From Acidobacteriota bacterium (lineage in GTDB: Bacteria; Acidobacteriota; UBA6911; RPQK01; JAJDTT01), in NCBI GenBank assembly GCA_965217775.1, contig CBDCJH010000002.1, positions 864,001-928,000 of the forward strand: 64,000 nucleotides of DNA, read 5' to 3'. The position numbers and the translations under genes are program-made. Positions within the stretch are counted from its first letter, which is position 1. Each line of letters starts with the position of its first letter. Of the stretch, positions 28,133 to 61,428 are shown in pieces. Below the pieces are notes generated by a model that saw only the letters and a list, made by a program, of their open reading frames with translations, made no database searches and had not been told where the DNA came from.

Positions 28133-28256
28133 GGGAGGGGCGACTTTCTTGTCGCCCGCTCTTCGGTGTTGCTATGCGATTCGGTGGCCGGGAAGTGTAG
28201 TGGGACTCCGTCCCCCCTAACCGACCCTGGTCGGCGGCAAGAAAGCCGCCGCTCCT
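28133..28256. repeat. REP doublet (REPIN-like) element, intact copy
   Basis: Inverted GGAG-GGGCGAC-TTTCTT-GTCGCCC hairpins; homologous to the IS4-interrupted copy at 58164-59628. Confidence 0.8.
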
Positions 28257-58216: not shown

Positions 58217-59544
58217 CATAAGAGCTAACTTGATTGCCTGACCACTATCTTGTATAGTGTCGGCATGAGCCAAACGGTAATAAAAGCGGCTGCGAATGAG
58301 GACTGGGACTTGCTGGTGTCATTTTTCCCAGCCAATTGGCTGGATCTGGCGGCCTCGACCGGAGCCCTGAAGGGCCTGCGCAAGGACAAGTCGCCGGAAA
58401 ACCTGTTGCGGACCCTGCTGATCCATCTCGGCTGCGGGCATTCCTTGCGCGAAACCGTGGTGCGGGCTCGGCAAGCGAGCCTGGCAGATCTGTCCGACGT
58501 GGCCCTGCTCAAGCGGCTGAGGAAATCCCGCGACTGGCTCTACGCCCTCTGCGTGGAACTGTTCCGGGAGCATGGCATCGCCGTCTCCAAGAGCGCAGGC
58601 TTCCAAGTGCGGGCGTTCGATGCGACGACCGTGCACGAGCCCGGCCGGACCGGGTCGGTGTGGCGCCTTCACTACAGCGTCAACCTGCCTTCGCTCGGCT
58701 GCGATTTCTTCAAGCTGACCGCATCGCAGGGGCGCGGCACTGGCGAGTCGTTCAGGCAGTTCCCGATCCGGCCGGGCGATTACGTGCTGGCCGACCGCGG
58801 CTACTCGACTGCGGTCGGGATTCAGCACGTCGCGGCTGGCGGAGGGTACGTGACGGTGCGCGTGAACACCGGATCGCTGCTGCTGGAAACCGAGGCTGGC
58901 CAAGCGTTCGACCTGCTCGCAGCCGTGGAAACGCTGCCGCGACCGAGGCCTGTCGGCCGTTGGAGGGTCCGCACCGTGGCCCGGGCCGGGCCACCCGTGG
59001 CGGGCCGGATCTGCGCGGTGCGCAAGACCGACGAAGCCATCGAAGTCGCGCATGCCAAGATCCGCCGGACGGCTCAGCGCAAGGGCAAGCAGGTCCGGCC
59101 CGAAACCCTGCGGTTCGCGCGCTTCGTCATCGTTTTCACAACCTACCCAGCGGAGGCATTCCCAGCGGCCGATGTGCTGGAGTGGTACCGCCTCCGCTGG
59201 CAAGTCGAACTGGTCTTCAAGCGCTTCAAGTCCCTGGCCCAGCTCGGGCACCTGCCGAAGCACGATGACGCAAGCGCCCAGGCTTGGTTGTATGGCAAGC
59301 TGCTGGTGGCGCTGCTGGTCGAAAAGATGGTCCGCCATGCGCGGACCATTTCCCCCTGGGGATACGACGTCGCGACCGGACAGGACTCCCAGCCCGTGGC
59401 GTGACTTCAAATTCGCATTGAACCAAGTCACGCGAGCCATCGAGCGGGCGTATTCCCTAAGACGCATGGTCGCCGAATGGCACGAAATCTCGGCGTCTTT
59501 GGCAGAACCTCCCCGGAGAAGGTCCAATCAAATTAGCTCTTATG
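58217..59544 (+). mobile_element. IS4-family element
   Basis: 20-bp TIRs CATAAGAGCTAA(C/T)TTGATTG; 11-bp TSD GGACGGAG(C/T)CC. Confidence 0.92.
58265..59404 (+). CDS. IS4-family DDE transposase
   Basis: FDAT, LADRGY, YRLRWQVELVFKRFKS (YREK). Confidence 0.92.
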   Translation: MSQTVIKAAANEDWDLLVSFFPANWLDLAASTGALKGLRKDKSPENLLRTLLIHLGCGHSLRETVVRARQASLADLSDVALLKRLRKSRDWLYALCVELFREHGIAVSKSAGFQVRAFDATTVHEPGRTGSVWRLHYSVNLPSLGCDFFKLTASQGRGTGESFRQFPIRPGDYVLADRGYSTAVGIQHVAAGGGYVTVRVNTGSLLLETEAGQAFDLLAAVETLPRPRPVGRWRVRTVARAGPPVAGRICAVRKTDEAIEVAHAKIRRTAQRKGKQVRPETLRFARFVIVFTTYPAEAFPAADVLEWYRLRWQVELVFKRFKSLAQLGHLPKHDDASAQAWLYGKLLVALLVEKMVRHARTISPWGYDVATGQDSQPVA

Positions 59545-59709
59545 GGACGGAGTCCCCCCTCTACACTTTCCGGCCACCGAATCGCATAGCCACACAGAAG
59601 AGCAGACGACAAGAAAGTCGTTTGTCCCAGGAGGCGGCAAGAAAACCGCCTCTCCCAGTGGGCGACAAGAAAGTCGCCTGTACCCTTCTCAAGTAGTCTT
59701 TAGGGAACT

Positions 59710-59880
59710 TCGCCCACGGTGGGTGAAGAGGGCCAACCGGCCGGGAGCTACCATAAAGCCGCAGCGCTCTCAGAGCACCTGGAGGGGACTCGTGCCCCGG
59801 CCGGTTGCCGCGATGGAGGCCCCGTGGGAAGTTTGGATCCACGAATGCCAGTACAGGAATTGGTCCGGATCGCGGCGGCC
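59710..59880 (+). ncRNA. Predicted IS110 bridge RNA
   Basis: Two stem-enclosed internal loops whose segments match the target (AAAGCCGC, GGAGGGG) and the donor (GGGAAGT, GTACAGG); ends approximate. Confidence 0.8.
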
Positions 59881-59911
59881 CGACGTCCATTTAATCACTA
59901 GGAGGTTCGGG

Positions 59912-61159
59912 ATGAAACCAAGTCAATGGTTTGTGGGGGTCGATTGGGCGTCCCAGGCGCACCAAGTCTGCGTCGTGGATGAGCGAGGCACCTGTCAGGG
60001 ACAGCGCAGCTTCCCGCACAGCGGTTCGGGCCTGGCCCAGATGGCCGACTGGATCCTGCAGCAGACGGGGACGAGAGCGGAGGCCGTCTCGGTGGCGATT
60101 GAAGTGCCGCACGGTCCGGTGGTGGAGTTTTTGATGGGGCGATGCTTTGTCGTGTATGCCATCAATCCAAGGCAGGTGGATCGATTCCGCGACCGCTTCT
60201 CGCCGGCGGGCGCCAAGGATGACCGCCGCGATGCCCGGGTGCTGGCCGACGCGATCCGAACCGACGGGGATCGCTGGCAACAGCTCGAACCGGTCGATTC
60301 TGAAATGATCCAACTGCGCGAGTTGTCCAGACTGGGTGCGCAGTTGACCCGCGATCGGACCCGGCTTCTCAACCGCCTGCGCCAACAACTCTGGCGCTAC
60401 TATCCGCAGTTCCTACACCTGAGTAAGGATCTCGCCGAGCCCTGGGTGATGGCAGTGTGGAAGCTGGCCCCGACACCGGATGCGGCCCGGAAGCTGCGTC
60501 CGAGCCGGGTCGCCAAGATGTTGAAACACCATCGGATCCGGCGCATCGACGCCCCCGAGGTCCTGCGTCGCTTGCGGGTACGCTCCATCCCGGTCGCCCC
60601 GGGCACCACCCAGGCGATGAGGGTCCACATCGAAAGTCTCGGTGAGCGCCTGGCCGTGGTGCGGAACCAACTCCGGGACATCTCTCGTGAGCTCGACCGT
60701 TTGATCCGGGCTTGGGAGAAGCGGTGCGAGTCGACCCCGGGGCCCCAAGGACCGTCCCGGGACGTGGCGATCCTCGCCTCCCTGCCCGGGGTCGGCCGAA
60801 TCGTTCTGGCCACCCTGCTCTCGGAAGCCTTCGATCCGCTCCGGCGCCGAGATTACGCCGCCTTGCGCTGTCTGTGCGGGGTCGCCCCCGTGACCCGGCG
60901 TTCCGGCAAATACACCCGGGTCGTGCGCCGCCAGGCCGTGCATCCTCGTTTACGGGAGGCGGCCTATCATTGGTCCCGCGTGGCCACGCAACACGACCTC
61001 ACCAGCAAGGCCAAGTACGCTGCCCTGCGGGAGCGCGGCCACGGCCATGCCCGGGCCCTGCGGTCCGTTGCCGATCGCCTGCTGGCGGTGGCCTGCGCCA
61101 TGTTGAGAAACCAGACCGTGTACGATGCGAATCATGTGAGGCAGCGCCGTGCTGCTTGA
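59912..61159 (+). CDS. IS110 DEDD recombinase
   Basis: VGVDWA, AIE, AKDDRRDA, SLPGVG, APVTRRSGK; AGGAGG RBS. Confidence 0.95.
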   Translation: MKPSQWFVGVDWASQAHQVCVVDERGTCQGQRSFPHSGSGLAQMADWILQQTGTRAEAVSVAIEVPHGPVVEFLMGRCFVVYAINPRQVDRFRDRFSPAGAKDDRRDARVLADAIRTDGDRWQQLEPVDSEMIQLRELSRLGAQLTRDRTRLLNRLRQQLWRYYPQFLHLSKDLAEPWVMAVWKLAPTPDAARKLRPSRVAKMLKHHRIRRIDAPEVLRRLRVRSIPVAPGTTQAMRVHIESLGERLAVVRNQLRDISRELDRLIRAWEKRCESTPGPQGPSRDVAILASLPGVGRIVLATLLSEAFDPLRRRDYAALRCLCGVAPVTRRSGKYTRVVRRQAVHPRLREAAYHWSRVATQHDLTSKAKYAALRERGHGHARALRSVADRLLAVACAMLRNQTVYDANHVRQRRAA

Positions 61160-61428
61160 TCCGGATCTGGACCGAGGGACGTTATAGGCTCCACCCTGGT
61201 GCGGTCGCTCCAGAAGCTCAAGAGCGATGTCCATCCGGGCGACCATGGACTGGACCCGGGGATCGCTTCACCAGGTCAATGGGAACCACCGTACCAGAGA
61301 GGACCCCCAGGGGGAGGCCCGGCGAAGGGAGCGTAGCGACCGCAGCGGGGCCTCCCCCTGGGGGTCAAATCTCGCTTGAAGAAGGGTGGGAAGTCCCCTC
61401 CTAGTAGACGACAAGAAAGTCGCCTCTC

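What the first reader, a model, noticed from the sequence alone, without database searches (positions are those of the whole stretch)
59677..61396. IS110 with a readable bridge RNA programmed against the host REP, CC core
Seen: the left junction is AAAGTCG-CC-TGTAC and the right is GGGAAGT-CC-CCTCC. This gives target AAAGTCG CC CCTCC (the REP, same as the reverse complement at 28134-28147) and donor GGGAAGT CC TGTAC. In the left non-coding end, stem AACCGGCCGGG/CCCGGCCGGTT encloses AAAGCCGC (59755-62, one mismatch to target-left) and GGAGGGG (59781-87, reverse complement of CCCCTCC). A second stem CCGCGAT/ATCGCGG encloses GGGAAGT (59826-32) and GTACAGG (59851-57, reverse complement of CCTGTAC). 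Established: this is the target-loop/donor-loop layout of IS621-type bridge RNAs, which use a CT core. Inference: a distinct orthologue with a CC core, potentially reprogrammable.
Basis: partly seen in the sequence, partly recalled or inferred. Interest (0 to 1): 0.78.

Follow-up and report, generated by a model that had tools for sequence, protein, structure and literature searches.

The report
IS110 element with CC-core bridge RNA
This is an ordinary-looking IS110-family insertion sequence sitting in a host repeat, whose left end encodes a two-loop bridge RNA that matches its target and its own ends around a CC, not CT, crossover dinucleotide, as do its many relatives.

Summary
Window 59677-61396 is a 1718-bp IS110-family element plus one extra CC. 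It sits in the 3' arm of a host REP hairpin, and the rebuilt empty site occurs 17 times in the genome.

It encodes an intact 415-aa DEDD/Ser recombinase. Its predicted fold is closest to IS621 and ISCro4, at about 20% identity.

The left end folds as a 5' hairpin followed by two stem/internal-loop modules. On 50 relatives, 90% of cells pair against 34-48% in slid controls, and 26 of 35 pairs show compensatory changes.

Loop sequences track the flanks in two separate sets of relatives, with 0 of 5000 permutations as good in each of four tests. The core is CC at 49 of 50 and 24 of 24 left junctions. One relative uses CT, and its core-reading guide bases are switched to match.

CC is a trait of a large clade, not of this copy. 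No RNA or activity is shown. This is a new member of a known kind, with a notable core.

The parts
59661..59678 (+). Host REP hairpin GGCGAC-AAGAAA-GTCGCC. Its last 9 bases are the left target (AAAGTCG, 59670-59676) plus the core CC (59677-59678).
   Evidence: The REP family has 150 pattern hits in the genome, with compensated stem variants (GGCGGC/GCCGCC, GGGGAC/GTCCCC).
59677..61396 (+). It is 1718 bp plus the second copy of the CC core.
   Evidence: RNA-library contigs of related REP sites join 59676 to 61395, skipping 1718 bases, but with sides of only 20-21 letters.
59679..59911 (+). Left non-coding end (233 nt) that encodes the bridge RNA.
   Evidence: Alignable across relatives of 55-81% protein identity.
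59681..59686 (+). TACCCT, a candidate -10 box of a promoter that exists only when the right end is joined to the left end.
   Evidence: Read from the sequence. TAnnnT stands at this place in 39 of 50 relatives. Inference only; it is a weak match.
59708..59728 (+). 5' stem-loop (9 pairs, 3-nt loop).
   Evidence: 9 of 9 pairs are kept in 4 close relatives, 2 of them through one-sided changes.
59730..59734 (+). 5' half of a basal helix (GGGCC) that pairs with 59877-59881 and encloses both loops.
   Evidence: helix 1: 67% of cells paired and 4 of 6 pairs with compensatory change. This is the weakest helix.
59735..59806 (+). Target-binding module: outer stem 59737-59748 with 59794-59804, internal loop, and a small inner hairpin at 59764-59778.
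   Evidence: helix 2: 95.6% paired and 8 of 11 pairs compensatory. The inner hairpin is lengthened in L070/L076.
59755..59763 (+). Left target guide AAAGCCGCA, in the same sense as left target plus core (AAAGTCGCC); 7 of 9 bases are identical.
   Evidence: Covariation of this position with the left flank is shown.
59781..59789 (+). Right target guide GGAGGGG, the reverse complement of CC+CCTCC, followed by the handshake bases AC, the reverse complement of GT at right-end positions 6-7.
59807..59876 (+). Donor-binding module: outer stem 59807-59814 with 59869-59876, middle pairs, and an inner hairpin at 59835-59848.
   Evidence: helices 5-7: 97%, 89% and 98% paired.
59826..59834 (+). Left donor guide GGGAAGT, identical to the last 7 bases of the right end, followed by UU where the core would pair.
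59851..59859 (+). Right donor guide GTACAGG, the reverse complement of CC+TGTAC, followed by AA. These two bases are not complementary to left-target positions 6-7 (CG) in this copy.
59900..59905 (+). Ribosome-binding site AGGAGG, 6 nt before the ATG.
59912..61159 (+). Recombinase gene, 415 aa, open and full length.
   Evidence: Pfam PF01548 at 6e-36 and PF02371 at 2e-15. D11, E64, D104, D107 and S331 are invariant in 25 relatives. Fold is nearest IS621.
61160..61394 (+). Right non-coding end (235 nt), ending in the left donor GGGAAGT (61388-61394).
   Evidence: The right end is as short as 12-15 nt in relatives, so most of it is dispensable.
61297..61373 (+). Long hairpin in the right end; role unknown.
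   Evidence: Free energy -66.4 kcal/mol, z -7.7, 0 of 200 shuffles as stable. Shared with L009 with a compensated change. No run of T follows it.
61376..61381 (+). TTGAAG, a candidate -35 box. It lies 17 nt before TACCCT once the right end, one CC and the left end are joined.
   Evidence: Read from the sequence. A TTG/TTT-initial hexamer stands at this offset in 26 of 32 relatives, and is TTGACA itself in 5. Inference.
61395..61401 (+). Second core copy CC (61395-61396) and the right target CCTCC (61397-61401).

Best explanation
An IS110-group insertion sequence that chooses its insertion site with a bridge RNA encoded in its left end.

**Shown**
- An intact DEDD/Ser recombinase gene.
- A conserved RNA scaffold: a 5' hairpin, a target module and a donor module.
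- Four loop segments that read left target plus core, core plus right target, the right end of the element, and core plus the left end.
- A 2-nt CC crossover, so that the rebuilt empty site is the host REP.

**Inferred by analogy with IS621**
- The element excises as a circle.
- The right-end/left-end joint makes a promoter (TTGAAG, 17 nt, TACCCT) that drives the bridge RNA and the recombinase.
- Recombinase tetramers hold the donor joint on one loop and the REP site on the other.
- The top strands are cut after the core and exchanged. Two bases 3' of the right target guide then pair with the incoming donor strand.
- The element ends up in the 3' arm of the REP hairpin with no duplication beyond the shared CC.
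For: **Protein**
- Pfam PF01548 and PF02371.
- IS621 chain by sequence, E 1.3e-7, with D11, D104, D107 and S331 aligned to the IS621 catalytic residues.
- These residues and E64 are invariant in 25 relatives.
- AlphaFold model with mean pLDDT 87.7. Its ten best PDB matches are IS621 and ISCro4 synaptic complexes, E 8e-12 to 2e-10.

**RNA scaffold (50 distinct left ends)**
- 90.2% of 1741 cells pair, against 34-48% when partners are slid.
- 26 of 35 pairs have compensatory changes.
- 0 of 500 shuffles reach any of the five measures.

**Guides, genome set**
- 54 of 56 distinct left ends were used.
- 50 of 54 have an exact reverse complement of their own right donor guide upstream. It is a single hit in 48.
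- The 7 bases before it match the left-target-guide region at a mean of 5.87 of 7, against 4.18 for permuted pairs (0 of 5000).
- The right target matches the right target guide at 4.29 of 5 against 2.21 (0 of 5000; 28 unique).

**Guides, separate metagenome set**
- Left: 5.57 against 4.19, 0 of 5000, 23 pairs.
- Right: 16 of 18 perfect and 2 at 4 of 5, 0 of 5000.

**Core**
- CC at 49 of 50 and 24 of 24 left junctions.
- CC at 26 of 28 and 18 of 18 right junctions.
- The core predicted from the right target guide agrees in 27 of 28 and 18 of 18.
- L074 has CT at both junctions, with the left target guide reading CU and both right guides reading AG.

**Handshake**
- The base after the right target guide is A, opposite T7 of the right end, in 28 of 28.

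**Same ends and same kind of site**
- Seen in both paralogues and in L006-L009, where the guide follows the host's REP variant (ACAG against AAAG).
Against: - No RNA, circle or transposition is shown. The RNA-library data are contigs of 90-99% likeness and cannot show a transcript.
- This copy's left target guide mismatches its own site at 2 of 9 positions. Its donor-loop handshake bases (AA) do not fit its left target (CG).
- The element is single-copy at this sequence; its two paralogues are only 82% identical.
- The joint promoter is weak. The -10 matches TATAAT at 3 of 6 positions and would fail the scanner's rule (criteria).
- The left donor guide does not pair with the core by Watson-Crick pairs in most relatives (UU in 26 of 54, CC in 9).
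- The basal helix pairs in only 67% of cells.
- Junctions were located with the elements' own donor guides, so donor-guide matches are partly by construction. Only the target-side tests are independent.
Confidence: 0.9

Rival explanations
1. The architecture is real, but this copy is a relic that no longer moves. The guide matches record a past insertion.
For: - The left target guide differs from the occupied site at 2 of 9 positions, and the donor handshake bases do not fit.
- There is only one copy of this sequence in 6.4 Mb.
- Only 4 genomic sites match the guide perfectly, against 17 of the occupied type.
Against: - The recombinase frame is open and all catalytic residues are present.
- The scaffold helices are intact.
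- One or two guide mismatches are tolerated by IS621 according to passages of PMC11208160.
- Relatives of 90-99% likeness appear in RNA-library contigs of two studies, so near-identical copies are widespread.
Confidence: 0.3
2. The site is chosen mainly by the REP hairpin's shape or by protein-DNA contacts, and RNA pairing is only a secondary check. This is the 'sequence-structure dual match' proposed for ISPpu10.
For: - In this clade the core is always the last two bases of the REP hairpin's 3' arm (window, L003, L006-L009).
- Passages of preprint 10.64898/2026.03.19.712850 argue for a role of the target stem-loop.
Against: Relatives with the same scaffold sit in sites without such a hairpin, for example runs of C in L010, L042 and L054, or the unrelated sites of L046 and L051. 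Their guides still match.
Confidence: 0.12
3. The crossover is not CC. The C runs at the junctions hide another core, such as CT, a single C, or three bases.
For: In the window's clade the left flank ends in C-rich sequence and the right flank starts with CC, so the register could slip. L009's junction is one C short of its REP consensus.
Against: - Junctions without C runs leave exactly CC shared. L046: TTTT-CC-TGTAC and AAGT-CC-ACAGG. L051: GATC-CC-TGTAC and GAGT-CC-ATTTG. L014: GGTC-CC and GAGT-CC-GGCTC.
- The window itself shares only CC (G against T before it, T against C after it).
- With one CC, the rebuilt site equals 17 genomic REP copies.
Confidence: 0.03
4. The left end is only a 5' leader or regulatory region, and the four matches are chance.
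For: For the window copy alone the fold is not unusual: z -1.22, with 19 of 200 shuffles folding as well. Rfam has no matching family.
Against: Covariation of helices and of loops with flanks in two separate sets of relatives, 0 of 5000 permutations in each of four tests.
Confidence: 0.02

Closest known systems
IS621 / IS622 (ISCro4) bridge recombinase systems (Durrant 2024, PMC11208160; Hiraizumi 2024, PMC11208158; passages read)
   Same: - RuvC-like DEDD domain plus a Tnp domain with a catalytic Ser.
- RNA encoded in the left end.
- 5' hairpin plus a target loop and a donor loop.
[quoted passage not shown]
- A 7+2+5 site.
- Handshake bases 3' of the right guides.
- A REP target.
- A -35-like box at the end of the right end.
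   Different: - About 20% protein identity, and 415 aa against a 328-residue chain.
- Core CC instead of CT. The second core base, T, is called 'almost invariant' and is read by the backbone of G63 in IS621.
- Here the loop after the catalytic Glu reads VPHGP.
- The left donor guide mostly has UU at the core positions.
- The right target guide reads 7 bases.
- A basal helix may enclose both modules.
- The right end is long (235 nt) and carries a hairpin.
ISPpu10 (IS110 group, Pseudomonas putida; preprint 10.64898/2026.03.19.712850, passages read)
   Same: Inserts into REP hairpins present in a hundred or more copies, with a bridge RNA and a joint promoter.
   Different: ISPpu10 has a CT core. 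No protein or RNA comparison with it was made here.
IS1111 group (seekRNA; Siddiquee 2024, PMC11187229, passages read)
   Same: A DEDD recombinase that selects its target through an RNA.
   Different: There the RNA lies downstream of the gene, the elements have subterminal inverted repeats of 7-17 bp, and the order of the two strand-matching regions is reversed. Here the conserved RNA lies upstream, and only GGT...ACC flanks the donor site.

Membership tests
IS110 family (DEDD recombinase insertion sequences) | N-terminal PF01548 domain followed by a C-terminal PF02371 domain | tested here: met
   6.3e-36 (residues 8-165) and 1.8e-15 (residues 286-369), both above the curated cut-offs.
IS110 family (DEDD recombinase insertion sequences) | Catalytic D, E, D, D and Ser | tested here: met
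   D11, D104, D107 and S331 align with the IS621 residues. There E64 is placed by eye (AIE against CIE), because HMMER's alignment is shifted at that point. All five are invariant in 25 relatives.
IS110 family (DEDD recombinase insertion sequences) | Fold of the solved IS110 recombinases | tested here: met
   Model pLDDT 87.7. Foldseek ranks 1-10 are IS621 and ISCro4 chains, E 8e-12 to 2e-10, target-normalised TM 0.55-0.58.
IS110 family (DEDD recombinase insertion sequences) | No long terminal inverted repeats; a short core repeated at both ends; site-specific insertion | tested here: met
   The ends are TGTACCC... and ...GGGAAGT, with CC at both junctions. The same ends and the same kind of site are seen in paralogues and relatives.
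IS110-group bridge RNA (IS621 type) | Structured RNA in the left end: a 5' hairpin plus two stem-loops with internal loops | tested here: met
   35 pairs, 90.2% paired, 26 compensatory.
IS110-group bridge RNA (IS621 type) | Target loop covaries with the left and right target | tested here: met
   0 of 5000 permutations in each of four tests.
IS110-group bridge RNA (IS621 type) | Donor loop matches the element's own ends, core included | tested here: inconclusive
   The 7-nt left and right donor guides match the ends, and they vary together (ATACAGG with TGTAT; GAACAGG with TGTTC in L088). However, the junctions were found with these guides. The left donor guide's core positions are CC in only 9 of 54.
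IS110-group bridge RNA (IS621 type) | Handshake bases that pair with position 7 of the other substrate | tested here: met
   Target loop: A opposite T7 in 28 of 28. Donor loop: G opposite C7 in 39 of 45, with C:G in L078 and A:T in L046; 12 of 5000 permutations are as good. The window copy itself fails on the donor-loop side.
IS110-group bridge RNA (IS621 type) | CT core dinucleotide | tested here: not met
   CC at both junctions here, at 49 of 50 and 24 of 24 left junctions of relatives, and CT only in L074.
IS110-group bridge RNA (IS621 type) | Promoter rebuilt across the right-end/left-end joint | tested here: inconclusive
   A -35-like box stands at a fixed offset in 26 of 32, and TAnnnT in 39 of 50. 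There is no sigma-70-like site inside the integrated element. The -10 is weak and the host's promoter rules are unknown.
IS110-group bridge RNA (IS621 type) | The RNA is made, binds the recombinase and is needed for recombination | not testable with these tools
   Only contigs of RNA libraries were on hand.
IS1111 group | Guide RNA in the right end and subterminal inverted repeats of 7-17 bp | tested here: not met
   The conserved structured RNA is upstream of the gene. Right ends of relatives are as short as 12-15 nt. Only a 3-bp GGT/ACC pair flanks the donor site.

The most novel reading that the evidence does not exclude
A large clade of bridge recombinases, spanning several phyla, natively crosses over at CC. 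Relatives occur in Acidobacteriota, Alphaproteobacteria, Gemmatimonadota, Rhodothermales, Chloroflexota and rhizobial plasmids.

These enzymes accept C at core position 9, where the IS621 group has an almost invariant T read by the protein backbone. The core is nevertheless specified by the RNA, because the one CT member has switched its core-reading guide bases.

Such enzymes would open CC-centred sites to bridge editing. They would also show whether the core is fixed by the protein or by the RNA.
Probability: 0.55. Interest if true: 0.6.

Novelty: new member of a known kind. Interest (0 to 1): 0.42.

Why it matters
Bridge recombinases are being developed as programmable DNA-rearranging tools. 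The characterised ones (IS621, IS622/ISCro4, ISPpu10) use CT cores, and IS621 was tested only with NT cores.

A natural, well-populated clade with CC cores offers two things:
- ready-made orthologues for sites the present tools reach poorly;
- a natural experiment on what fixes the core, in the single relative that has switched to CT with matching guide changes.

For the genome itself the finding is ordinary. It is one of three related IS copies parasitising a REP family of about 150 copies.

Tried and rejected
- **Rfam:** no family at E up to 1 other than chance microRNA-like hits on the right-end hairpin. Rfam 15 seems to hold no bridge RNA model, so this says nothing.
- **Single-sequence fold of the left end:** z -1.22, not informative alone.
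- **RNAalifold on four close relatives:** too little variation, and it paired the two target guides with each other.
- **Promoter scan:** 0 sites in the integrated element. I did not scan a joined right-end/left-end sequence, because joined sequence may not be typed.
- **RNA runs:** four metatranscriptome runs from two studies hold contigs 90-99% like the left end and the gene. They are contigs of relatives and show no start, end or strand, so they give no verdict on expression.
- **The three 'skip' joints:** they have sides of 20-40 letters and are probably other REP copies.
- **A loose pattern for the hairpin apex motif:** it hit 85 unrelated places in the genome and missed the window's own hairpin, so I dropped it.
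- an empty guide string for L075 flooded the output. L068 and L075 were left out of all later counts because their left ends did not align.
- the left-donor-guide columns were off by one, so no right junctions were found. This was corrected.
- **Papers:** 'CC core' together with 'IS110' finds 0 papers. Searches and the passages read mention no CC-core clade.
  - Durrant 2024 kept 'only ... CT core guides' for one analysis.
  - The October 2026 preprint treats the core as a variable of length c.
  - So other cores are implicitly known.
- **ISfinder names of relatives** could not be looked up.
Full report
**The observation**

- Left junction: AAAGTCG-CC-TGTAC (59670-59683).
- Right junction: GGGAAGT-CC-CCTCC (61388-61401).

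Only CC is shared by the two junctions. With one CC removed, the flanks give AAAGTCGCCCCTCC. That 14-mer is at 28134-28147 on the minus strand and has 3 matches in the window at up to one mismatch, against 0.05 expected. It has 17 exact copies in the 6.4-Mb genome.

It is the 3' part of a REP: a 6-bp hairpin, GGCGAC-AAGAAA-GTCGCC, followed by (G/C)CTCC. A degenerate pattern finds 150 copies, with compensated stem variants. The core is the last two bases of the hairpin's 3' arm.

**The gene**

An ATG at 59912, six bases after AGGAGG, opens a 415-aa frame that ends at 61159.
- It has the two Pfam domains of IS110 recombinases.
- By sequence it finds only the IS621 chain in the PDB (E 1.3e-7). 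There D11, D104, D107 and S331 align with the catalytic residues.
- These residues and E64 are invariant in 25 relatives.
- A model built on that alignment (pLDDT 87.7) has IS621 and ISCro4 synaptic-complex chains as its ten best PDB matches, at about 20% identity.
- The protein family is very large: 7813 of the 8000 scored candidates had E up to 0.001.

**The RNA scaffold**

I fetched 80 related loci from species genomes. 537 of 564 candidate stretches encode a relative, and the best 80 were kept. To these I added the two paralogues and the window.
- This gave 56 distinct left ends among 83 loci.
- Two, L068 and L075, did not align and were dropped.
- The left ends align across 55-81% protein identity.

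On 50 distinct sequences I counted a structure of 35 pairs: a basal helix, the outer and inner stems of a target module, and the outer, middle and inner stems of a donor module.
- 90.2% of cells pair, against 34-48% when partners are slid by 1-3 columns.
- 26 pairs have compensatory changes.
- None of 500 shuffles reaches any of the five measures.
- The basal helix is the weakest, at 67% paired.
- A 5' hairpin (59708-59728) precedes the modules.

This is the layout described for IS621: a 5' stem-loop and then two stem-loops with internal loops (passages of PMC11208160).

**The guides**

In each left end the reverse complement of its own right donor guide occurs upstream in 50 of 54 cases, and exactly once in 48. 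I took that as the left junction.

| Test | Set | Observed | Permuted pairs | Permutations as good |
|---|---|---|---|---|
| 7 bases before the left junction vs left-target-guide region | genome, 45 unique pairs | 5.87 of 7 | 4.18 | 0 of 5000 |
| 5 bases after the core vs right target guide | genome, 28 unique | 4.29 of 5 (16 perfect) | 2.21 | 0 of 5000 |
| Left, as above | metagenome, 23 pairs | 5.57 | 4.19 | 0 of 5000 |
| Right, as above | metagenome, 18 | 16 perfect, 2 at 4 of 5 | 2.66 | 0 of 5000 |

- Right junctions were taken where the left donor guide matches exactly after GGT. 39 loci qualified, 28 of them unique.
- The second set is separate: 40 metagenome contigs, of which 27 held a bridge-RNA match long enough to use.
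- Examples are L046 (GGTTTTCC guide, GGGTTTT-CC flank; CCTGTGG guide, CC-ACAGG flank), L051, L014, L078 and L110.
- In the window's own clade the guide follows the host's REP: ACAGTCCCC in L006-L008, whose REP loop is CTAACA, against AAAG in the window genome.

**The core**

- CC stands at 49 of 50 and 24 of 24 left junctions.
- CC stands at 26 of 28 and 18 of 18 right junctions.
- The core predicted from the right target guide agrees with the junction in 27 of 28 and 18 of 18.
- Junctions free of C runs (L046, L051, L014) leave exactly two shared bases.
- L074 has CT at both junctions. Its left target guide reads CU there, and both right guides read AG. The core-reading bases of the RNA therefore change with the core.

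In IS621 and its relatives the second core base, T, is 'almost invariant' and is read by the backbone amide of G63 (passage of PMC11208158). IS621 was tested only with NT cores, and ISPpu10 also uses CT. Here the segment after the catalytic Glu reads VPHGP (consensus). That this explains the different core is my speculation.

**Other points of likeness and difference**

- The two bases after the right target guide are AC in the window, complementary to GT at right-end positions 6-7. The first is A in 28 of 28 relatives.
- The corresponding base of the donor loop is G opposite C7 of the left target in 39 of 45, with C:G in L078 and A:T in L046. 12 of 5000 permutations do as well.
- The window copy has AA against CG and so fails this test on the donor-loop side.
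- The left donor guide is followed by UU in 26 of 54 and by CC in 9. It mostly cannot pair with the core except by wobble. This differs from IS621, where all four guides include the core.
- The right end finishes with a TTGACA-like box at a fixed offset: 26 of 32 begin TTG or TTT, and 5 are TTGACA. The left end begins TG-TAnnnT in 39 of 50.
- Joined through one CC, these give a 17-nt spacer. The integrated element has no sigma-70-like site. This fits the joint promoter of IS110 elements, but the -10 is weak and nothing shows that it fires.

**State of this copy**

The frame and helices are intact. However, the left target guide (AAAGCCGCA) differs from the occupied site (AAAGTCGCC) at two positions. 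It would match AAAGCCGCCCCTCC, of which the genome has 4 copies.

The genome holds two paralogues at 82% identity.
- L003 is in the same REP type, with the same junctions.
- L002 is in the GTCCCC variant, which its guide matches perfectly.

I cannot say whether the window copy still moves.

**Expression**

Runs labelled as metatranscriptomes, from two studies, hold contigs that cover the left end and the gene at 90-99% likeness. They are contigs of relatives and cannot show a transcript, so I draw no conclusion from them.

**What is known, and the verdict**

Bridge RNAs (2024) and seekRNAs are established. Bridge RNAs were predicted in 85.7% of catalogued IS110-group elements. An October 2026 preprint clusters bridge RNA variants at scale and treats the core as a variable.

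I found no text naming a CC-core clade.

I therefore file this as a new member of a known kind, with one notable parameter.

Noticed in passing
L086 (G000:C2:4640300-4644700); the element spans about C2:4640370-4644534: The paralogue L002 is 4.16 kb instead of 1.69 kb. Its right end is interrupted by about 2.4 kb. The insert carries, on the opposite strand, a 726-aa ORF with DruA (1e-32), Tnp_DNA_bind and DDE_Tnp_1 domains, so it is a nested transposase or cargo inside an IS110 element.
   Followed up: partly
window 61297-61373, and L009: There is a very stable hairpin in the right end (-66 kcal/mol, z -7.7). It is shared with L009 with a compensated change and is unique in the genome. Its apex (GGCGAAGGGAGCGTAGCGACC) resembles the apices of hairpins inserted in the long left ends of L011, L015-L017, L022, L026-L033, L046-L050 and L085. 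Its role is unknown.
   Followed up: partly
L074 (MAG of an uncultured alphaproteobacterium): This is the only relative with a CT core at both junctions. The core-reading bases of three guides are switched to match.
   Followed up: yes
L038 (Azospirillum canadense): The right end is followed by CC and then TGTACC, which is a left-end start rather than the site its target guide predicts. This is a donor-donor type joint or a tandem remnant. The recombinase frame there stops early.
   Followed up: no
L010, L011, L022, L039, L042, L044, L045, L054 and others: Many relatives carry a right target guide of GGGGGGG and a left target guide ending in CCCCC, and they sit in long runs of C (over 20 C in L054). 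They form a sub-group aimed at poly-C tracts.
   Followed up: partly
L088 (Sinorhizobium meliloti plasmid) and L087 (pNGR234a): Cultured rhizobia carry members of the same clade at 51-55% identity. In L088 the flank reads GGTGATC-CC-TGTTC, with the right donor guide changed to GAACAGG. In pNGR234a the gene is split into two annotated CDS.
   Followed up: partly
G000:C2 near 1656706, 3135874, 5760285 and 6039680: There are four identical copies of a second IS110-family element, 31% identical over the C-terminal domain.
   Followed up: no
window 58250-59404 (+), and 59600-59680: A 384-aa ORF that looks like a DDE transposase ends just upstream. Two further REP-like units lie between it and the element, so the IS sits in a patch of mobile and repeated DNA.
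   Followed up: no
L006-L009, window and L002/L003, left end positions 3-30: The window, L006 and L009 have 13 extra bases at the start of the left end that look like a duplication of GTACC(C/A)TTC. L002 and L003 lack it.
   Followed up: no
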